A stretch of 9,660 bases of DNA from Candidatus Nanopusillus sp. GTDB lineage: Archaea; Nanobdellota; Nanobdellia; Nanobdellales; Nanobdellaceae. The DNA lies in NCBI GenBank assembly GCA_028275775.1, contig JAPWTZ010000015.1:1-9660 (forward strand). Direction: 5' to 3'. Below, piece by piece: positions 1 through 9,380 of the stretch. Every line of letters begins with the position of its first letter. Position 1 is the first letter of the stretch. A program made the position numbers and the translations under genes. Below the pieces are notes generated by a model. It ran no database searches and was not told the DNA's origin. It was given only the letters and a program-made list of their open reading frames with translations.

Positions 1-482
1 ACTTTATATCCTAAAGAATATACAATTTCTCCAATTTCATTGTTAAATACAAGTTCAAAGTTTCTAAAGCTTTTAGATTTATAATTAAATATTTCTTTTA
101 TTTTCTTTTTATGTAATTTTATTTGATTAATAAATTCTTCTTTATCAATTAAATATGCTAATGAATGATAGTAAGTTTCTGATACAATTTCTACATTTCC
201 AGTATCTACCAATTTTTTCCATAATTCTAAAATTTCTGGATGATATAGTTCTAATTGCTCAATTAATGTTCCTGAAATTGAAAATGATACTTTTATATCA
301 TATTTTGTAATATTATCATATATCATTTCTAATGCTGGTTTATAACATTTATATACAACTCTATCTAATATTCTTTTATTTAGATCGTCATTAAAATAAT
401 TTTTAGATCCAATATCAAAAAATGAATAATATCTTATTCTTCTTGGTTGATGCGCATGGAAGTAAAATACAAGACCTGTCAT
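1..482 (-). CDS. Glycoside hydrolase family 57 (alpha-amylase-like) protein, N-terminal ~160 codons; the gene runs off the left edge of the window
   Basis: Not in the supplied ORF track because it is open at the window edge. My reverse-strand translation from ATG at 482-480 is stop-free to position 1: MTGLVFYFHAHQPRRIRYYSFFDIGSKNYFNDDLNKRILDRVVYKCYKPALEMIYDNITKYDIKVSFSISGTLIEQLELYHPEILELWKKLVDTGNVEIVSETYYHSLAYLIDKEEF... An HxHQP motif a few residues from the N-terminus, then CY-P, SxSG-L-E-L and G-VEI...Y-H, matches the conserved N-terminal regions of GH57 enzymes. 160 stop-free codons is unlikely by chance at this AT content. The subfamily (amylase, glucanotransferase or pullulanase) cannot be decided from this fragment. 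Confidence 0.8.
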   Translation of the reverse strand, partial: MTGLVFYFHAHQPRRIRYYSFFDIGSKNYFNDDLNKRILDRVVYKCYKPALEMIYDNITKYDIKVSFSISGTLIEQLELYHPEILELWKKLVDTGNVEIVSETYYHSLAYLIDKEEFINQIKLHKKKIKEIFNYKSKSFRNFELVFNNEIGEIVYSLGYK

Positions 483-519
483 AAATATTTTTTAAAGGTA
501 TAACAATATAAAATTTAAT
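483..519. promoter_or_regulatory. 37-bp divergent spacer with two interdigitated TATA-like cores (GH57 gene leftward, glycogen-synthase operon rightward)
   Basis: Plus-strand TTTAAAGG at 491-498 starts 29 nt before the A of ATG-520. Minus-strand TTTATATT at 512-505 starts 30 nt before the A of ATG-482. This spacing matches the archaeal TATA-to-TSS distance if both mRNAs are leaderless. AT-rich background makes each single match weak. Confidence 0.4.
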
Positions 520-834
520 ATGATTGAAGTTGATGATGAAAAACAAGCATTTATCACTATTGATGGACAAAAATTATATGGTCTTCAAGATTTATTAATT
601 TGGTTATACAATGCAGATCAAGAAAAATTTAATTATCATAAAAATCATTTTCCTGAATGGATAAAAAATTCATTAAAAGAGGAAGGTTTATATGAAAAAA
701 TAAAAGAAGCAAAAGATAAGGATGAATATATAAAAATTATAGGAAATTTCTTAAAAACCCATGAAATATATGTAAAGAAAAAGTTTTCAAAAGAAGAGGC
801 TGAAATAAAATTTTCAAAATTATTTGGATTATGA
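520..834 (+). CDS. Small hypothetical protein (104 aa), first gene of the glycogen-synthase operon
   Basis: ORF track. Its TGA stop (832-834) overlaps the ATG (831-833) of the next gene as ATGA. The N-terminal half has a globular-looking pattern (FITIDGQKLYGLQDLLIWLYNADQEKFNYHKNHFPEWIKNSL) and the C-terminal half is K/E-rich and probably helical. I cannot assign a family from sequence alone. Confidence 0.6.
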   Translation: MIEVDDEKQAFITIDGQKLYGLQDLLIWLYNADQEKFNYHKNHFPEWIKNSLKEEGLYEKIKEAKDKDEYIKIIGNFLKTHEIYVKKKFSKEEAEIKFSKLFGL

Positions 835-1493
835 TAGTATCTTTTTTATCATTAAAAGGTGGGGTTGGAAAAACTACATTAGCAAATAATCTTGCAGCAT
901 ATTTAAAGAAAGAATATAATTATAAAGTATTAATAATAGATACAAATGGAATTTATTCTTCAAATTTAATATTTCTAGATAATGAAAAATTCTTTGGAAA
1001 TAAAATATATGAGGGAATAAAGGTATTACCATACTTTCATTTAAAAATTATAGATAATTTGGATTTTAATATTAATGATTTAAATTATTTGAAAAGATAT
1101 TATGATGTAATTGTTTTTGATGTTCTTCCAAATATAAATTATATATTAAATATTGAAAAAATATCTGATATAAATTTTCTTGTAATAAATCCAGATTTCT
1201 ATTCTTTATACGTAAATAAAAAATTATATGATCTTTTAGATAAAAATAAGGTTAAAATAATATTAAATAAATATGATAAGAGTATTGAAATAGATTTTAT
1301 AGAAGATTTATTTAATAAAGAAGTATATGCAATTATTCCAATAATTAAAGATTTTATTAATTATCAATTTCAATATCAACCAATTGCATTTTATAATGAA
1401 AAATCAAAGGCATTGAAATATATAGATGAGCTAGCATATTGTATAACTGGTAATAAAAGGAAAAGAAGTATATTTGATATTATATTTAGATGA
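831..1493 (+). CDS. ParA/MinD-family P-loop ATPase (deviant Walker A)
   Basis: Deviant Walker A with the signature lysine, SLKGGVGKTT (nt 855-878), lies 8 residues from the N-terminus as in ParA/MinD/Soj. It is followed by VLIIDTNG (switch I/Walker A-prime position) and a hydrophobic strand ending in Asp, YDVIVFDVLP (Walker B). At 220 aa it is typical of small ParA/MinD proteins. ATGA overlaps at both ends (831-834 and 1490-1493). Confidence 0.85.
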   Translation: MIVSFLSLKGGVGKTTLANNLAAYLKKEYNYKVLIIDTNGIYSSNLIFLDNEKFFGNKIYEGIKVLPYFHLKIIDNLDFNINDLNYLKRYYDVIVFDVLPNINYILNIEKISDINFLVINPDFYSLYVNKKLYDLLDKNKVKIILNKYDKSIEIDFIEDLFNKEVYAIIPIIKDFINYQFQYQPIAFYNEKSKALKYIDELAYCITGNKRKRSIFDIIFR

Positions 1494-3109
1494 TATTGTT
1501 TGAGCAATCTTGGGAAGTATGTAATAAAGTAGGAGGAATATATACTGTAATATCTACTAAAGCAAAATATATAAAGGAAAGATATAAGGATAAATATTTT
1601 TTAATTGGTCCATATAAAAATAATTCGGAATTTATTGAATTAGATCCTCCAGATTATATAAAAGAAATAAATTATCAATTGGATGGAATTAAAGTACATT
1701 ATGGATATTGGAATATTGAATCAAAACCAAATGTATTTTTAATAGAATTTGATGAATTTTTTAATAAAGAAAGAAATTTATGGAAATATAAATATTGGGA
1801 ATGGTATAAAATAGATTCTTTAAATTCAGATTTTACTTTTGATGAGCCATTATTATGGTCTGTTGCTGTAGGAATATTTTTAGAAAAATTGGATAAATAT
1901 TTTAATGAGAAAAAAATATTACATGCACATGAATGGTTATCTGGAGGTACAATATTATATATAAAGAAAAATAATCTAAGTTATAAAACAATATTAACAA
2001 TCCATGGAACAATTATTGGAAGAACATTATCTGAAAAAAATGTAAATGTAGAAAATGCATTGAATATAATAGATCCTGATAAAGATTCATATAGATTGGG
2101 AATAAATTCAAAATATCAATTGGAAAAACAGGCAATATTAAATTCTGATATATTTACAGTAGTATCAGATAATTTGGGAGAAGAAGCATATAAAATATAT
2201 AAGAGAAAACCAGATTATATAACATACAACTATATAAATGTAAAAGAAAAAGAATTATTTAATTATTATAAAATTTCAAAGAAATGGATTGATGAATTTT
2301 TAACATGGTATTTTTATCCATATTATGATTTACCAGAAAAATATTTACTAATATATACAATTGGTAGATATGAGCCATATAATAAGGGTTTAGATCTATT
2401 TATTGATTTGTTGAAATATTTAGATGAAAAGAAATTAAATACCATTGCATTCATTTTTGTTCCTTATATTATTAAAGGACAAAATAATGATATAATTAGA
2501 TCTTATAAAGAGTATATTAAATTGAAAGAAAATATAGAGGAAAATATTCATTTAATTATTAGATCTTTATATAATGGAAAAAATATATTGAATAAATTAG
2601 ATAGGATAAAGAATAGAAATCCGCCAATATGTACTCATGATGTAGAAAATAATATTATAATTGAAAAATTAAGAGAAAACAATTTAAATAATGATAAAAA
2701 TAATTATGTAAAAGTTATATATGTTCCAGTTTATCTCGGAAATGATATATTATTTAGTTTAGATCAAGAATATATATTACCAGCATTCGATTTTGGTATT
2801 TTTTTATCAAGATATGAACCTTATGGATATACACCATTAGAAGCATTGAACAATTTTGTTCCAATTGTTTTATCTAATAAAACTGGATTTTATAGAAACT
2901 TAATAAGTAAAAATATAAGTCATGAATATATAATTAATGTAGATCCAAACAATTTAGATAAAGAATTTATATATAATAAATTTTTACAATATTATAATTT
3001 AGATTTATATGATAAAATGGAAATAAAAAAGCAAATGTATGAAATATCTAAGAAATTTGATTGGAAAAATAATATAAACGAATATATAAATATTTATGAT
3101 TCTATGTAA
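1490..3109 (+). CDS. Glycogen synthase, eukaryote-type (CAZy GT3 family)
   Basis: Motifs are collinear with animal/yeast glycogen synthase as I remember it: EQSWEVCNKVGGIYTVISTKAK...YFLIGPY, HAHEWLSGG, TIHGTIIGR, KRKPDYIT, GRYEPYNKGLDLF, NPPICTH, VKVIYVPVYL, SRYEPYGYTPLEAL, and FDWK near the C-terminus. It is 539 aa with no long N- or C-terminal tails. Confidence 0.9.
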   Translation: MILFEQSWEVCNKVGGIYTVISTKAKYIKERYKDKYFLIGPYKNNSEFIELDPPDYIKEINYQLDGIKVHYGYWNIESKPNVFLIEFDEFFNKERNLWKYKYWEWYKIDSLNSDFTFDEPLLWSVAVGIFLEKLDKYFNEKKILHAHEWLSGGTILYIKKNNLSYKTILTIHGTIIGRTLSEKNVNVENALNIIDPDKDSYRLGINSKYQLEKQAILNSDIFTVVSDNLGEEAYKIYKRKPDYITYNYINVKEKELFNYYKISKKWIDEFLTWYFYPYYDLPEKYLLIYTIGRYEPYNKGLDLFIDLLKYLDEKKLNTIAFIFVPYIIKGQNNDIIRSYKEYIKLKENIEENIHLIIRSLYNGKNILNKLDRIKNRNPPICTHDVENNIIIEKLRENNLNNDKNNYVKVIYVPVYLGNDILFSLDQEYILPAFDFGIFLSRYEPYGYTPLEALNNFVPIVLSNKTGFYRNLISKNISHEYIINVDPNNLDKEFIYNKFLQYYNLDLYDKMEIKKQMYEISKKFDWKNNINEYINIYDSM

Positions 3110-3142: not shown

Positions 3143-3811
3143 ATGACATCATTTGCTGATTTTATAATAAACTTAGTAAATGTATTAGGAATAAATTTGA
3201 TATTTGTTTTTCTATTCTATTTTGGAATATTATATTTTCTAATAAAATTTTTAATGGATAGTATGGTAAAAGCAGGTGAAAAAGGAGAAAAGAAAGATGA
3301 AGGAGGAGCAAAGAAAGACATATATAGTACATTAGCATTTATAATATCTCTTTCTGCATCAATATTATTAACAACATTTACTGGTTTTGCATTATATACT
3401 CAATATTTTGCAGCTTTTGTAGTTTCAATGATTTTAGTATTCTTTTTCTTTATACTTTTGGGAGCCTTGTTAACAAATGGTAAAATATTTGAATTAATAG
3501 AAAAAAGAATGTTTTCAACTGAAGGAAGACCAAGTAGTGCTAGATATATACCAGTAATAATAGTACTATTTATTATTTTATTTGCCTTATTAGCTATGTA
3601 TTATGCATATCAAAGTTATTTTTTACCATTAACTCTTGGTACATCCCCACAGGCACAAACTTATATAATAACTTTTAATCCTTATATATTATTTGCAGTA
3701 ATATTTTTTGTTTTAATAGGTATATTTTTAATATTCTCTGGTACTGGTGTTAGTCCTGAAGGTGGAAAGGGACCTGAAAAGCAGGGAGGAGATAAAGGGA
3801 AATCTGGATAA
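3143..3811 (+). CDS. Polytopic membrane protein of unknown function (about 5 hydrophobic segments, G/K/E-rich loop and tail)
   Basis: ORF track. There are long hydrophobic runs (INLIFVFLFYFGILYFLIKFL, FAAFVVSMILVFFFFILLGALL, YIPVIIVLFIILFALLAMYY, ILFAVIFFVLIGIFLIF). There are also low-complexity charged segments: GEKGEKKDEGGAKKD and the C-terminal SPEGGKGPEKQGGDKGKSG. I recognise no family. Confidence 0.65.
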   Translation: MTSFADFIINLVNVLGINLIFVFLFYFGILYFLIKFLMDSMVKAGEKGEKKDEGGAKKDIYSTLAFIISLSASILLTTFTGFALYTQYFAAFVVSMILVFFFFILLGALLTNGKIFELIEKRMFSTEGRPSSARYIPVIIVLFIILFALLAMYYAYQSYFLPLTLGTSPQAQTYIITFNPYILFAVIFFVLIGIFLIFSGTGVSPEGGKGPEKQGGDKGKSG

Positions 3812-6515: not shown

Positions 6516-7481
6516 TCATTTTGTTAGAACATCAAATTGCTTTCTTATCCATATTACAGAAAATACTGCTAAAGAAAATATTATTACTTCTATTGGATTA
6601 AATATTATTGAAAATATTGGTAATAGAGCAACAGTTACAACAGATGCAATATAAAATGGTGTACTTGATAATATTAATATATCTCCAATAAATTTATTTG
6701 AATATGTATATCCTTTTCTAATTGATAAATATGGAGATAATAATATTCCTATTGGTATTATTGATGAATATGTAAAGAAAAATAAGAAATTAAAGAAATA
6801 ATAAATAAAACCATATAATAATGGTGAATAATATGATATATATTTTATTGATGAATATATTATCCATAATATTATTGTAGAAATTAAAAATATCCTTAAT
6901 AATTCATCATTTCTTACTTCTATATTTTTACTTCTTCCAATTCTTTTATATTCTATTACTATTGGTTTCATTGAAAATATTATTGGAACAAACAATCCAA
7001 GAGTAATTATTGATATTATAATTGTAATTATATAACTTAGATTATGTCTCTTTATATATGTAAAATTTAATTGTTCTTTCTTTGAGCTCTTTATTTTTAG
7101 TTGTTTTATATAATTATAAAAGAATAATATTACAAAGAAGGATATCATAACATATACAAACAAATTGTGTCTAAATATAAAGAATAATATTACTTCTAAA
7201 ATAATTAATAAATAATAAAAAAATGCATAAGATTCTCTTTTATAAAGTAAAATTTTTAATTCTACAATAACATTATCTAAATAAATATATAAACCATAAA
7301 ATGATGAAACCAAATTAAATATAAATAAAAATATAAAGTATGAAATTATTGTATAAATTATTGAGAAAAATAAATTAGACAATCCAATAAATAAATTATC
7401 CCAATGATTAAAAGATAGAAAAAAGCCTATAATTATTAAATAATATATTATTCTTCTATCTATTTTTATATATTCAAACAT
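6516..7481 (-). CDS. Polytopic integral membrane protein of unknown function (321 aa)
   Basis: ORF track. The protein is almost entirely hydrophobic F/I/L/Y-rich segments separated by short basic loops ([39 protein letters not shown]). A 321-codon stop-free frame at this AT content, plus a TATA core at the expected distance, supports a real gene. I recognise no family. Confidence 0.6.
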
Positions 7482-7517
7482 TTCATCTTTTTATTTTTTA
7501 ACTTTATAAAATATATT
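7482..7517. promoter_or_regulatory. 36-bp divergent spacer with interdigitated TATA-like cores (membrane ORFan leftward, lonB rightward)
   Basis: Palindromic TTTATAAA at 7503-7510 read on the minus strand starts 29 nt before ATG-7481, with a 21-nt spacer identical in length to the tfb promoter. Plus-strand TTTATTTT at 7490-7497 starts 28 nt before ATG-7518. Confidence 0.35.
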
Positions 7518-9380
7518 ATGTCTGAAAATAATATAATATCAATAAAAGACTTATATAATATATTTAAATTTAAGACTACGGAAGAAATAAATGTACCTGA
7601 AAAGATATCAGAACAAATTATTGGACAGGATAAGGCATTAGATATAATTAAAAAAGCTGCTAAACAGAGGAGGCATGTTTTATTAATAGGGGATCCTGGT
7701 ACTGGTAAATCAATGTTAGCACAAGCATTGGCAGAAATATTATCAGAAGATAAAGAGCAAGTTAAGAATTTAGAAGATATATTAGTATTTCCAAATCCAA
7801 ATGATGAATATCAACCAATAATAAAAACAGTTCCAATGGGAGTTGGTAAAAAAATTGTAGAAGAAATGAGAAAGAAAGTATTGGAACAAACAAAAATATT
7901 TCAATATTTTTATATTCTATTATTATTTATATCTGCATTTACTCCAATGTACTTTTATTATGCAGGAAATTATATAATGGCTGGTGCAACATTTATTGGA
8001 TTTATGATTTTAATGGCAAGTTTATCATTTTCTTTCCAAGTAATGCAAAAACAAATAATGAAAAATATACCAAAATTATTAGTAGATAATTCAAATAGAA
8101 CTTCTGTTCCATTTGTAGATGCTACAGGTGCATTTGAGGGTATGTTATTTGGAGATGTACTACATGATCCATTCCAATCTGGAGGTCTTGAAACTCCACC
8201 TCATCAAAGGGTAATTGCTGGTGCAATACATAAGGCAAATAAGGGTGTATTGTTTATAGATGAAATTGGAACATTAAGACCAGAAGTTCAGATAGAATTA
8301 TTATCTGTTTTACAAGAAAAGAAGTATCCAATTTTTGGAAGATCTGAAAGATCTGCTGGTGCAATGGTAAGAACTACTCCAGCTCCTGCTGATTTTGTAT
8401 TGGTAGCAGCTGGAAATTTAGAAACATTACAAAAATTACATCCAGCATTTAGATCAAGAATAAGGGGATATGGATATGAAGTATTTATGAATTCTGAAAT
8501 ATTATTTACTGAGGAAACTGCAAAAAAATTTGCTCAATTTGTTGCACAAGAAGTTAAAAAGACAGGTAATATACCGCATTTTACAAAAGAGGCTGTAATA
8601 GAAATTATTAGAGAAGCTCAAAGAAGATCTGGAAGAAAAAGTTATTTAACATTAAGATTAAGGGATTTGGGAGGATTGGTAAGATTAGCTGGAGATATTG
8701 CAAAATCAAAAGGAAAAAAATATGTTGAACCTGAAGATGTTATAGAGGCGAAGGAAAAGGCATTAACAATTGAAGAACAATTATCAAAATATTATATTGA
8801 AAGAAGGAAAGAATATCAAATAATAAAAACTGAAGGATATGAAGTTGGAAGGGTAAATGGATTAGCAGTAATTGGATCAAGATTATATTATTCAGGATTA
8901 GTATTACCAGTTGAGGCAGAAGTTGTTCCTGGAAAGGGTAGTAGGGAAATTATTGCTACAGGAAATTTAGGAAAAATTGCAAAAGAAGCAATAGTAAATG
9001 TATCTGCAGTAATAAAAAAGAAATTTGGAGAAGATTTGAAGAAATATAAAGTTCATGTACAATTTTTACAAACATATGAAGGTGTAGAAGGAGATTCAGC
9101 TTCAATAACTGTTGCAACTGCAATAATATCTGCATTAAAGAATTGGCCAGTAAGACAAGATCTAGCAATGACAGGTTCTTTATCAATAAGAGGAGAAGTA
9201 TTACCTGTTGGTGGTATAATAGCAAAAGTAGAAGCTGCAATTGAATCTAAATTAAAAGAAGTTATAGTACCGGAGGGTAATTATAATGATATACCCGAAG
9301 ATTTATTTGATAAGATAAAAATAACACCTGTAAAAACAATAGATGAAGTTATAGATATCGCAATTGGTAAGAAGATTTAA
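7518..9380 (+). CDS. lonB: Archaeal membrane-anchored Lon protease (LonB type)
   Basis: The N-terminus [19 protein letters not shown]...[19 protein letters not shown] carries the Walker A motif. A hydrophobic two-helix insertion lies inside the AAA+ module (aa ~127-173, nt ~7896-8036: [45 protein letters not shown]). Walker B is GVLFIDEIG. The protease domain has a Ser-Lys dyad context: [13 protein letters not shown] (Ser527) and [12 protein letters not shown] (Lys570). Confidence 0.95.

What the first reader, a model, noticed from the sequence alone, without database searches (positions are those of the whole stretch)
520..3109. Small protein / ParA-MinD ATPase / GT3 glycogen synthase triad joined by ATGA overlaps: candidate positioning or regulatory module for glycogen synthesis
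Seen in the sequence: three ORFs are chained by ATGA stop-start overlaps (831-834 and 1490-1493). This implies one transcript and probably coupled translation. A GH57 glycoside hydrolase is transcribed divergently only 37 bp away, so the locus is a glycogen cluster. Established knowledge: ParA/MinD ATPases work with small cognate partners to position or control specific cargo. Examples are ParA-ParB for DNA, McdA-McdB for carboxysomes, MinD-MinE, and FlhG. The closest parallel is BcsQ with the small BcsR in the bacterial cellulose operon bcsR-bcsQ-bcsA, where a small protein and a MinD-like ATPase precede a processive glucosyltransferase and support its stability and polar localisation. The gene order here (small ORF, MinD-like ATPase, glucosyltransferase) mirrors that layout. 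Inference: the ATPase and the 104-aa protein may localise, partition or gate glycogen synthase or glycogen granules. To my knowledge no such module has been described for glycogen synthesis.
Basis: partly seen in the sequence, partly recalled or inferred. Interest (0 to 1): 0.7.

Follow-up and report, generated by a model that had tools for sequence, protein, structure and literature searches.

The report
MinD-like ATPase module in glycogen cluster
In a tiny symbiotic archaeon, a small protein of an uncharacterised family and a MinD-type ATPase sit inside the glycogen gene cluster. Comparison with other genomes shows this is a recurring, undescribed accessory module of glycogen-type clusters, not a chance neighbour. 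What it does has not been tested.

Summary
Three ORFs (104-aa protein 520-834, 220-aa deviant-Walker-A ATPase 831-1493, GT3 glycogen synthase 1490-3109) are joined by ATGA overlaps. A GH57 gene is divergent, 37 bp away. The window is from a Nanopusillus-type nanoarchaeon.

The triad is intact in every Nanopusillaceae lineage examined, down to 37-50% ATPase identity. This includes one locus where the downstream synteny is broken.

New here: the small protein is a single-repeat member of the DUF5752/OrfY (PDB 4CSO) superfamily. Relatives of that family sit directly after GT5(GlgA-like)>GH57 in DPANN archaea and CPR bacteria. GH57 lies within 6 kb in 55 of 80 loci, against 0 of 80 control loci. 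In eight Woesearchaeota/Pacearchaeota-type loci a MinD-like ATPase again follows the DUF5752 gene, but the next enzyme is GH15 glucoamylase or sugar kinases, not GT3.

So the link to alpha-glucan metabolism is well supported. The specific GT3-client, BcsRQ-like reading is not. The ATPase derives from archaeal MinD, keeps its ATP-binding motifs and has a MinD-like basic/amphipathic C-terminus.

Best reading: an ATP-dependent MinD-type switch plus a DUF5752 adaptor that organises glycogen enzymes or granules. No interaction, localisation or activity was tested. I found no description of it in the literature.

The parts
1..482 (-). 5' part (160 codons) of a GH57 glycoside hydrolase gene, transcribed divergently from the triad. 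The gene runs off the window.
   Evidence: Pfam PF03065 E=1.7e-40. Full-length ~390-408 aa orthologues occupy the same position in all relatives. It is Nps_00370 in N. acidilobi.
483..519 (.). 37-bp divergent intergenic region, presumably holding both promoters. A/T-rich TATA-like elements lie about 26 nt upstream of each start codon, which would fit leaderless mRNAs.
   Evidence: Sequence read directly. This is by-eye inference only: at 23% GC such elements arise easily by chance, and no archaeal promoter tool was available.
520..834 (+). Small protein (104 aa): a single-repeat member of the DUF5752/OrfY superfamily. It has a folded helical domain (residues 1-80) and a flexible basic/amphipathic C-terminal tail.
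   Evidence: 9 of 10 family members hit PF19027 (best 25.2 bits against GA 23). The family profile finds 601 representative proteins, many annotated DUF5752. AF2 pLDDT is 87 overall and above 94 for residues 1-80. The best fold match is 4CSO OrfY (prob 0.97), and a DUF5752 two-repeat profile hits 4CSO at E=9.6e-5.
831..834 (+). ATGA overlap: start codon of the ATPase overlapping the stop codon of the small ORF.
   Evidence: A 4-nt or 1-nt overlap is conserved in all relatives.
831..1493 (+). 220-aa deviant-Walker-A (ParA/MinD/SIMIBI) ATPase: a shortened, divergent derivative of archaeal MinD. Motifs: KGGVGKT (res 9-15), D37-x-N39 switch I, D97 Walker B, N146-K. The C-terminus (KRKRSIFDIIFR) is a basic cluster followed by a short amphipathic helix.
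   Evidence: Pfam and NCBIfam; alignments; AF2 pLDDT 90. Fold search: A. fulgidus and Aquifex MinD TM 0.76, ParA, SegA, FlhG, then BcsQ lower. Profile search: P. furiosus MinD E=1.9e-46. Tail analysis.
1490..1493 (+). ATGA overlap: start codon of GT3 overlapping the stop codon of the ATPase.
   Evidence: conserved in relatives.
1490..3109 (+). GT3-family glycogen synthase (539 aa), with the N-terminal KVGGIYTV motif and an E-x7-E motif (EPYGYTPLE).
   Evidence: Pfam PF05693 256.6 bits. Motifs read from the translation. The orthologue Nps_00385 was detected in the N. acidilobi proteome.
3143..3811 (+). 222-aa multi-pass membrane protein of unknown family, directly downstream. It may belong to the module, but this is uncertain.
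   Evidence: No Pfam or NCBIfam hit. A 185-222 aa gene holds this position in all Nanopusillaceae loci but is separated from GT3 by two inserted genes in L010. It is annotated as a 5-TM protein (Nps_00390).

Best explanation
The three genes are the 3' half of a conserved alpha-glucan (glycogen) cluster of Nanopusillaceae. The order is GDE(-), GlgA-like GT5(+), GH57(-), small protein(+), ATPase(+), GT3 synthase(+).

The small protein is a single-repeat DUF5752/OrfY-family protein. That family is a hallmark accessory gene placed immediately after GT5>GH57 in DPANN archaea and CPR bacteria. The ATPase is a shortened descendant of archaeal MinD. It keeps everything needed to bind ATP and form the sandwich dimer, and it ends in a basic, amphipathic tail like a MinD membrane-targeting sequence.

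Proposed mechanism: with ATP bound, the ATPase dimerises and attaches to a surface. In this family the surface is most likely the membrane; in the Woesearchaeota-type relatives, whose tails are lysine-rich, it may be the membrane or a polyanion. The DUF5752 protein acts as the cognate adaptor or activator. Its folded domain would bind a component of the glycogen machinery (GH57, a synthase, or the granule). Its flexible basic C-terminal tail would contact the ATPase. Together they would localise, partition or assemble the glycogen-metabolising enzymes or granule, and ATP turnover would reset the system.

Shown: gene structure, family membership, motif conservation, conserved context and statistical association. 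Inferred: co-transcription, all physical interactions, membrane binding, the identity of the cargo, and whether the output is positioning or regulation.
For: Triad conservation:
- The triad is intact, with overlaps, in 9 further Nanopusillaceae loci, down to 37-50% ATPase identity.
- In L010 two genes have been inserted downstream, but GT5/GH57/small/ATPase/GT3 stay together.

Small protein:
- It belongs to the DUF5752/OrfY superfamily.
- Among 80 reference-genome loci found only through DUF5752-like genes, 55 carry GH57 and 52 a GT5-like synthase within 6 kb. The DUF gene is directly adjacent to GH57 in 33 of 73 loci.
- Among 80 loci ascertained through generic ParA/MinD genes, none carries such neighbours (Fisher p=2e-23).

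Second lineage:
- Eight loci (Woesearchaeota, Pacearchaeota, other Nanoarchaeota) read GT5>GH57>DUF>MinD-like ATPase>(DUF)>GH15 glucoamylase, tightly packed or overlapping. One has PfkB and ROK sugar kinases instead of GH15.
- The Nanopusillaceae small-protein profile scores best on the DUF copy directly upstream of the ATPase: median 41.6 bits against 29.6 and 22.5, MWU p=2.8e-5.

ATPase:
- The motifs KGGVGKT, D37, D97 and N146-K are invariant or nearly so, and the fold is predicted confidently.
- C-terminal basic/amphipathic tails are conserved in both cluster-embedded clades.
- N. acidilobi has a second MinD/ParA gene elsewhere (Nps_03280), and the housekeeping MinD clade sits in a different conserved context. 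This copy is therefore an extra, specialised one.
- DUF5752-like domains are fused to other P-loop ATPases (KaiC-type P0279; HerA/FtsK-type P0280 and P0319), which fits an ATPase-partner role.
Against: - No interaction, localisation or enzymatic data exist, and no multimer prediction could be run.
- Within Nanopusillaceae the whole ~12 kb (through SBDS, proteasome alpha, TFB, Lon) is collinear, so conservation of the triad there is not specific.
- In a crude NJ tree the Nanopusillaceae ATPases are only 25-31% identical to both the cluster-embedded and the housekeeping clades, so common origin of the two ATPase-in-cluster arrangements is not demonstrated.
- Most DUF5752-bearing clusters (about 65 of 73) have no adjacent ATPase, so the DUF protein clearly works without one.
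- The small protein and the ATPase were not detected in the N. acidilobi proteome, although GT3, GT5 and GDE were. Only about a third of the proteins were detected, so this is weak evidence.
- Spatial positioning seems of limited use in 100-300 nm cells.
- Switch I has Asn where MinD has its second Asp, so hydrolysis may be slow.
- The 80 DUF loci are the best-scoring of 462 and are phylogenetically non-independent.
Confidence: 0.5

Rival explanations
1. Regulatory pair acting on gene expression. The DUF5752/OrfY protein is a DNA-binding transcription factor for the glycogen genes, and the ATPase modulates its DNA binding, as ParA-type ATPases do with small DNA-binding partners (ParG, SegB).
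For: The depositors of PDB 4CSO name OrfY a 'transcription factor'. The small gene sits at the divergent promoter region next to GH57. The Woesearchaeota-type ATPases have lysine-rich tails that could bind DNA. The sizes (104 aa and 220 aa) resemble SegB/SegA, and SegA (7DUT) is the best single-sequence PDB hit.
Against: No DNA-binding domain was detected by Pfam or fold search, and there is no similarity to SegB, ParG or ParB. DUF5752 genes occur as tandem arrays of up to four copies and as domains of large multidomain proteins, which is unusual for a dedicated operon regulator. The OrfY label could not be traced to any experiment.
Confidence: 0.15
2. Generic housekeeping MinD (division-site, archaellum or other cargo positioning) with an unrelated small neighbour. 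The adjacency to glycogen genes is frozen synteny in a tiny, slowly rearranging genome and has no functional meaning.
For: The entire 12-kb neighbourhood is collinear across Nanopusillaceae. The ATPase descends from archaeal MinD. Overlapping genes are the rule in this genome. The ATPase and small protein were not detected alongside the glycogen enzymes in the proteome. Orthology between the NP and CL clades is unproven.
Against: N. acidilobi has a second MinD/ParA gene. The housekeeping MinD clade of related DPANN sits in a different conserved context, next to Cdc45/RecJ-like DHH, eIF2alpha, RIO kinase and SRP54. The small partner belongs to a family specifically tied to GT5-GH57 clusters across two domains of life. 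The DUF>ATPase pair recurs in clusters of a different architecture. None of 80 generic ParA/MinD loci is near glycogen genes. The triad survives where the flanking synteny is broken.
Confidence: 0.15
3. BcsR/BcsQ-like assembly or stability factor dedicated to the GT3 synthase. The small protein stabilises the ATPase, and the pair chaperones or localises GT3 specifically.
For: The gene order (small, ATPase, glucosyltransferase) has conserved overlaps in every Nanopusillaceae lineage. Pfam CBP_BcsQ gives 26.2 bits against a cut-off of 21.3 over the P-loop region. BcsRQ structures are among the fold matches (TM 0.65-0.70). Nanopusillaceae GT3 is 40-60 aa shorter than other DPANN GT3, so it could have lost an autonomous element.
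Against: In the second lineage the ATPase precedes GH15 or sugar kinases, not GT3. GT3 genes just outside the family lack both partners. The BcsQ equivalog model scores 33.7 bits against a cut-off of 157.85. MinD structures match better than BcsQ. The small protein is DUF5752, not BcsR. GT3 is a soluble GT-B enzyme, not a membrane-embedded processive synthase.
Confidence: 0.15

Closest known systems
Archaeal MinD (e.g. Pyrococcus furiosus MinD, PDB 1G3Q; A. fulgidus MinD-1, 1HYQ)
   Same: Deviant Walker A KGGxGKT with the signature lysine, the same fold (TM 0.76), and the best profile match (E=1.9e-46 with the mixed profile). A basic/amphipathic C-terminal tail resembling a membrane-targeting sequence.
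   Different: About 40 residues shorter, with a deleted segment after switch I. Only 25-35% identical. Scores 42 bits against the 201.75-bit cut-off of TIGR01969. Switch I is DxN instead of DxD. Embedded in a glycogen cluster with a DUF5752 partner, whereas the housekeeping clade is not.
BcsR-BcsQ of the bacterial cellulose secretion operon
   Same: A small protein gene is followed by a MinD-like ATPase gene and then a glucosyltransferase gene. The concept is a SIMIBI ATPase serving a polysaccharide synthase.
   Different: There is no homology between the small proteins. The ATPase is below the BcsQ equivalog threshold and is structurally closer to MinD. GT3 is a soluble GT-B enzyme, not a membrane GT2 synthase. 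In related clusters the ATPase is not next to a synthase.
McdA-McdB (carboxysome positioning) and other ParA/MinD cargo-adaptor pairs
   Same: A ParA/MinD ATPase is encoded beside a small cognate partner inside the gene cluster of the presumed cargo. The partner has a flexible charged tail. Inferring cargo from gene neighbourhood follows the same logic as for these systems.
   Different: The partner family is unrelated. The predicted surface is the membrane (amphipathic tail) rather than the nucleoid. The cargo would be a storage polysaccharide or its enzymes, for which no ParA/MinD system is described in the literature searched. McdA (6NOO) is a weaker match than MinD.
DUF5752 (Pfam PF19027) / OrfY of Thermoproteus tenax (PDB 4CSO)
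   Same: The small protein shares the fold (Foldseek prob 0.97, rmsd 2.1 A over 82 columns) and the H-x-N-x3-N-[DH]-F-x2-W signature. The family profile retrieves DUF5752 proteins at E down to 1e-13.
   Different: It has a single repeat of ~80 residues plus a tail, instead of the two-repeat ~208-residue architecture. The window protein itself is below the Pfam threshold. The function of DUF5752/OrfY is unknown, so membership gives no mechanism.
SegA-SegB archaeal chromosome segregation pair
   Same: A 220-aa ParA-type ATPase plus a ~105-aa partner in overlapping genes. SegA is the best single-sequence PDB hit (E=2.8e-5).
   Different: The gene order is reversed. There is no fold or sequence similarity of the small protein to SegB. 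The context is glycogen genes, and the partner family is tied to GT5-GH57 clusters.

Membership tests
ParA/MinD (deviant Walker A, SIMIBI) ATPase superfamily | Deviant Walker A K-G-G-x-x-G-K-[ST] with the signature lysine, plus the Walker A' (switch I) Asp and the Walker B Asp | tested here: met
   KGGVGKT at residues 9-15. K9, G10-G13, K14 and D97 are invariant, and D37 is conserved in at least 90% of sequences. Pfam AAA_31 48.4 bits and CbiA 43.9 bits are above their cut-offs.
ParA/MinD (deviant Walker A, SIMIBI) ATPase superfamily | MinD/ParA fold | tested here: met
   AF2 pLDDT 90.2. Foldseek gives E of 1e-10 to 1e-11 to ParA, MinD, Soj, SegA and FlhG structures, with TM up to 0.76.
Archaeal MinD proper (NCBIfam TIGR01969) | Whole-protein score above the curated cut-off (201.75 bits) | tested here: not met
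   42.4 bits. The protein forms a separate long-branch clade in the NJ tree.
Archaeal MinD proper (NCBIfam TIGR01969) | D-x-D switch I with a catalytic second Asp | tested here: not met
   N39 aligns with the second Asp of Pyrococcus, Archaeoglobus and Aquifex MinD. The same substitution is found in the related DPANN clades.
BcsQ (cellulose biosynthesis) | Score above the TIGR03371 equivalog cut-off (157.85 bits) | tested here: not met
   33.7 bits, covering the N-terminal 37 residues only. Pfam CBP_BcsQ gives 26.2 bits with no stretch passing on its own.
BcsQ (cellulose biosynthesis) | Cognate BcsR-type partner and a membrane GT2 cellulose synthase | tested here: not met
   The partner is DUF5752/OrfY-like. 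The glucosyltransferase is a GT3 GT-B enzyme.
ParA partition ATPase (NF041546) | Score above the 180-bit cut-off, plus a centromere-binding partner | tested here: not met
   43.2 bits. No ParB, ParG or SegB-like partner was found by Pfam or fold search.
GT3 glycogen synthase (Pfam PF05693) | Whole-protein score above the cut-off over most of the model | tested here: met
   256.6 bits against a cut-off of 27, with residues 5-483 matching model positions 1-524.
GT3 glycogen synthase (Pfam PF05693) | Catalytic motifs of retaining GT-B glucan synthases: N-terminal K-x-G-G and C-terminal E-x7-E | tested here: met
   NKVGGIYTV near the N-terminus and EPYGYTPLE in the C-terminal domain, read from the translation. 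Activity and donor specificity are not testable here; archaeal GT3 enzymes are uncharacterised.
DUF5752 (Pfam PF19027) / OrfY superfamily | Score above the gathering threshold (23 bits) | tested here: inconclusive
   The window protein has no hit at E<=0.01. 9 of 10 orthologues hit, one of them above threshold (25.2 bits). The family profile retrieves DUF5752-annotated proteins at E of 1e-9 to 1e-13.
DUF5752 (Pfam PF19027) / OrfY superfamily | Shared fold with the solved member (4CSO) and the N-D-F-x2-W signature | tested here: met
   Foldseek prob 0.97, TMq 0.50, rmsd 2.1 A. The DUF5752 profile hits 4CSO at E=9.6e-5 with the motif aligned in both repeats. The window protein has N-H-F-x2-W at residues 42-47.
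GH57 glycoside hydrolase | Pfam PF03065 score above the cut-off | tested here: met
   139.6 bits against 21.2 for the 160 residues inside the window. Substrate specificity was not tested.

The most novel reading that the evidence does not exclude
DPANN archaea, and in part CPR bacteria, equip their GT5-GH57 alpha-glucan clusters with a dedicated adaptor family (DUF5752/OrfY). In at least two archaeal lineages the clusters also carry a MinD-derived ATPase. Together these would form the first ParA/MinD-type system whose cargo is a storage-polysaccharide granule or its enzyme set. Because ParA/MinD dimerisation depends on ATP, the module could also act as an energy-state switch. It would tether or activate the glycogen machinery when ATP is available and release it when ATP falls. 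That would matter for host-dependent ectosymbionts, whose glycogen may be the only private energy reserve.
Probability: 0.3. Interest if true: 0.8.

Novelty: new variant of a known kind. Interest (0 to 1): 0.62.

Why it matters
ParA/MinD ATPases are the general prokaryotic solution for placing large cargos, and each new cargo class (plasmids, carboxysomes, chemoreceptor arrays, flagella, cellulose synthase) has been informative. None is known for glycogen.

Archaeal glycogen metabolism is poorly understood. Archaeal GT3 synthases are uncharacterised, priming is unexplained, and the role of the short GH57 enzymes is debated (review PMC11046441). This work ties an uncharacterised Pfam family (DUF5752) to GT5-GH57 clusters across DPANN and CPR, and it gives that family a solved structure (4CSO). 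It also shows a recurrent MinD-type partner. Together these give concrete, cheap experiments.

Two cultivated Nanopusillaceae systems exist (N. acidilobi, Nanobdella aerobiophila). If the module controls a private energy store, it bears on how obligate ectosymbionts survive detachment from the host, a question Wurch et al. 2016 raise.

Tried and rejected
Searches that led nowhere:
- The metagenome scan with the cluster-embedded ATPase alignment was saturated by the generic KGGVGKTT pattern (best hit 44% identity). It gave no independent ascertainment of that clade and was reused only as a negative control.
- The first DUF alignment (A5) was too diverse for pattern scanning.
- The literature search found nothing on DUF5752, OrfY or 4CSO, and nothing linking ParA/MinD with glycogen. 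My recollection that orfY lies next to treT in T. tenax could not be verified and is not used as evidence.
- No tRNA or Rfam family was found in the window.

Ideas considered and rejected:
- A glycogenin-like self-priming role for the small protein. The Tyr20 that is invariant in Nanopusillaceae is not conserved in the wider family.
- A metal or Fe-S-delivering SIMIBI NTPase (HypB, Mrp, NifH-like). There are no conserved cysteines or CxxC motifs.
- A SegAB-type segregation pair. The small protein shows no similarity to SegB.

Not resolved:
- Whether the second N. acidilobi MinD/ParA gene (Nps_03280) belongs to the housekeeping clade. Its sequence was not retrievable with the remaining quotas.

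Full report
**1. Observation**

The window (9,660 bp, 23% GC) encodes on the + strand a 104-aa ORF (520-834), a 220-aa ORF (831-1493) and a 539-aa ORF (1490-3109). They are joined by ATGA overlaps at 831-834 and 1490-1493. A minus-strand gene starts at 482, 37 bp from the small ORF.

Pfam identifies these genes as follows:
- The minus-strand gene is GH57 (E=1.7e-40).
- ORF2 is a CbiA/AAA_31-type deviant-Walker-A ATPase.
- ORF3 is a GT3 glycogen synthase (PF05693, 256.6 bits).

ORF1 has no family at standard thresholds. The rest of the window carries housekeeping genes (SBDS, proteasome alpha, TFB, LonB).

The overlaps are less special than they look. Four of six same-strand junctions in the window overlap.

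**2. Source and conservation**

The ATPase is 92-100% identical to proteins of Candidatus Nanopusillus and Nanobsidianus. A closed family of about 86 clusters then falls to 46-72% identity in other Nanopusillaceae (Nanobdella aerobiophila, NZ13-N and others). After that there is a sharp drop to roughly 30%-identical, ~263-aa MinD-like proteins. The small protein has only 12 close clusters, all from Nanopusillaceae.

Every divergent locus examined (L001, L003, L005, L008, L009, L010, L175, L176) shows small, ATPase and GT3 genes with 4-nt or 1-nt overlaps. All but the short contig L175 also show the divergent GH57, and the longer contigs have a GlgA-like GT5 gene and a GDE_C debranching-enzyme gene upstream.

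The whole ~12 kb is collinear in most of these loci, which weakens the argument from conservation. L010 is the useful exception. There, an AI-2E transporter gene and a KaiC-like gene have been inserted after GT3, and the glycogen block including the triad is untouched.

The next-closest GT3 genes (about 40% identity, other Nanoarchaeota) stand alone among unrelated genes.

**3. The small protein**

Nine of ten family members give weak hits to Pfam DUF5752, and one is above the gathering score.

An exhaustive profile search found 601 representative proteins at E<=0.001. The ~75-residue domain often occurs twice per protein (the 208-position Pfam model is a two-repeat unit). It is also fused to KaiC-type and HerA/FtsK-type ATPases and to large multidomain proteins.

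The AF2 model is confident for residues 1-80 (pLDDT above 94). It shows a short beta-hairpin plus a helical bundle, followed by a flexible basic/amphipathic tail.

The only meaningful PDB fold match is OrfY of Thermoproteus tenax (4CSO; prob 0.97, rmsd 2.1 A). A profile of two-repeat DUF5752 proteins hits the 4CSO sequence at E=9.6e-5, with the N-D-F-x2-W signature aligned in both repeats. ORF1 is therefore a single-repeat member of the DUF5752/OrfY superfamily. I found no paper on either.

**4. Context of the small-protein family elsewhere**

A scan of species-representative genomes with a DUF5752-like alignment gave 462 confirmed relatives. The best 80 loci come from Woesearchaeota, Pacearchaeota, other Nanoarchaeota, Altiarchaeales and Aenigmarchaeota, and from CPR bacteria (Saccharibacteria, Paceibacterota, Parcubacteria).

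I called ORFs locally and searched them with HMMs:
- 55 of 80 loci hold GH57 and 52 of 80 a GT5-like synthase within 6 kb.
- The dominant architecture is GT5>GH57>DUF, with 1-4 DUF copies.
- The DUF gene is directly adjacent to GH57 in 33 of 73 loci.
- About 18 loci also carry GT3, and several carry GDE.

As a control, 80 loci ascertained through generic ParA/MinD relatives hold none of these genes. Fisher's test for GH57 gives p=2e-23. The small-protein family is thus an accessory component of alpha-glucan clusters across two domains of life, whether or not an ATPase is present.

**5. A second ATPase-in-cluster lineage**

Eight of the 80 loci read GT5>GH57>DUF>MinD-like ATPase>(DUF)>~654-aa protein, with genes tightly packed or overlapping. 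A ninth, short contig has the ATPase and the DUF gene divergent.

The ~654-aa protein is GH15 glucoamylase. Pfam gives E=1.2e-26 for L015, and the other six are clear homologues. In L019, PfkB and ROK sugar kinases follow instead.

In a crude NJ tree these cluster-embedded ATPases (CL) are sister to the housekeeping MinD-like clade (HK), at 45-49% identity. The HK clade lies in a conserved context (Cdc45/RecJ-like DHH, eIF2alpha, RIO kinase, SRP54) without DUF or glycogen genes.

The Nanopusillaceae ATPases (NP) form a long-branched third clade, 25-31% identical to both. Orthology of NP and CL is therefore not shown.

However, the NP small-protein profile scores significantly higher on the DUF copy immediately upstream of the CL ATPase: median 41.6 bits, against 22.5 for the downstream copy and 29.6 for all others (p=2.8e-5). 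This fits a shared origin of the DUF>ATPase pair.

**6. The ATPase**

KGGVGKT (with the signature lysine), D37, D97 and N146-K are invariant or nearly so. The model is confident (pLDDT 90).

The closest structures are archaeal and Aquifex MinD (TM 0.76), ParA, SegA and FlhG, with BcsQ lower. A profile mixing NP and outgroup sequences hits P. furiosus MinD at E=1.9e-46. Scores against the curated equivalog models for MinD, ParA and BcsQ are far below the cut-offs.

N39 replaces the second Asp of the MinD DxD switch I. The CL and HK clades share this trait.

The NP proteins are about 40 residues shorter than the outgroups. They end in a basic cluster followed by a short amphipathic helix (KRKRSIFDIIFR, KRKVSILEKIISIFL). 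CL proteins end in (R/M)FSKIKxxLKKK-type lysine-rich tails. From general knowledge of MinD these look like membrane-targeting sequences, but this is inference only.

**7. Published data on the orthologous locus**

In N. acidilobi the cluster is Nps_00360 (GDE), 00365 (GT), 00370 (GH57), 00375 (uncharacterised), 00380 (MinD/ParA ATPase), 00385 (GT, the GT3 orthologue) and 00390 (5-TM membrane protein).

GDE and both glycosyltransferases were detected in the proteome. GH57, the small protein, the ATPase and the membrane protein were not (Wurch et al. 2016, Supplementary Data 1). Only about a third of the proteome was detected.

A second arCOG00589 MinD/ParA gene (Nps_03280) lies elsewhere, so the cluster ATPase is not the cell's only MinD-like protein. 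The authors discuss glycogen as a possible private energy reserve but do not mention these two genes.

A 2024 review of prokaryotic alpha-glucan metabolism states that archaeal GT3 enzymes are uncharacterised. In the text held (the first 300,000 of 445,374 characters) it does not mention MinD/ParA or DUF5752 genes in glycogen clusters.

**8. Interpretation**

The best-supported reading is that the small protein and the ATPase form an accessory adaptor/ATPase pair of the alpha-glucan cluster. By analogy with ParA/MinD systems, the ATP-bound dimer would bind a surface. The DUF5752 protein would couple it to a component of the glycogen machinery, giving localisation, partitioning or assembly control.

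The comparative data point to the GT5-GH57-DUF core rather than GT3 as the conserved partner set.

Three rivals remain open: a transcription-factor pair, a housekeeping MinD held in frozen synteny, and a GT3-specific chaperone. Each is weighed in the rival section. Everything beyond gene content, family membership and association statistics is inference.

**9. Verdict**

The feature is real and conserved. It appears to be an undescribed variant of the ParA/MinD-plus-adaptor theme, with a new predicted client (glycogen metabolism). As a by-product it gives the first contextual assignment for DUF5752/OrfY. Interest is moderate to high. The mechanism is untested.

Noticed in passing
L001:3308-4519 and 6663-8279; also L009, L010, L020, L053, L059, L062, L092, L094: Two different glucan-synthase types, a ~400-aa GlgA-like GT5/GT4 and a GT3 enzyme, coexist in the same cluster in Nanopusillaceae and in many other DPANN/CPR loci. 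This may bear on the open question of how archaeal GT3 synthases are primed.
   Followed up: partly
window 3143-3811 (+): A 222-aa multi-pass membrane protein with no family assignment always follows GT3 in Nanopusillaceae (185-222 aa; 5 TM in N. acidilobi Nps_00390). In L010 it is separated from GT3 by an AI-2E transporter gene and a KaiC-like ATPase gene. It could be a membrane partner of the amphipathic-tailed ATPase, or it could be unrelated.
   Followed up: partly
P0279, P0280, P0319 (representative proteins): DUF5752-like domains are fused to KaiC/RecA-type and HerA/FtsK-type P-loop ATPases, and to very large proteins with CarboxypepD_reg repeats. This suggests the domain is a general ATPase-associated or adaptor module beyond glycogen clusters.
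   Followed up: partly
L022, L089 (four tandem DUF genes); L020, L023, L044, L056, L076, L085, L088 (three): DUF5752-like genes occur as tandem arrays of up to four paralogues after GH57. The reason for this amplification is unknown.
   Followed up: no
L026, L034, L035, L040, L046, L064, L069: A second recurrent neighbourhood of DUF5752-like genes, a co-directional run of ORFs of roughly 321, 305, 152, 216 and 283 aa, was seen but not identified.
   Followed up: no
window 831-1493, residue N39; alignments A2 and A4: All three DPANN MinD-like clades (housekeeping, cluster-embedded, Nanopusillaceae) have Asn in place of the second Asp of the MinD DxD switch I motif. This may mean slow or partner-dependent ATP hydrolysis in the whole group.
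   Followed up: partly
L001:726-1643 (-), L003:669-1583 (-); N. acidilobi Nps_00355: An AAA+ ATPase fused to an ArsR/TrmB-type HTH domain lies next to the debranching-enzyme gene at the edge of the cluster and was detected in the proteome. It is a candidate transcriptional regulator of the glycogen genes.
   Followed up: no
N. acidilobi Nps_03275-Nps_03280 (Wurch 2016, Supplementary Data 1): The second MinD/ParA ATPase of N. acidilobi is also preceded by an 'uncharacterized protein'. Whether that is another small partner could not be checked.
   Followed up: no
window 1490-3109 versus P0170-P0252: Nanopusillaceae GT3 synthases (529-560 aa) are 40-60 residues shorter than the GT3 enzymes of other DPANN (585-620 aa). 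The missing segment was not mapped.
   Followed up: no
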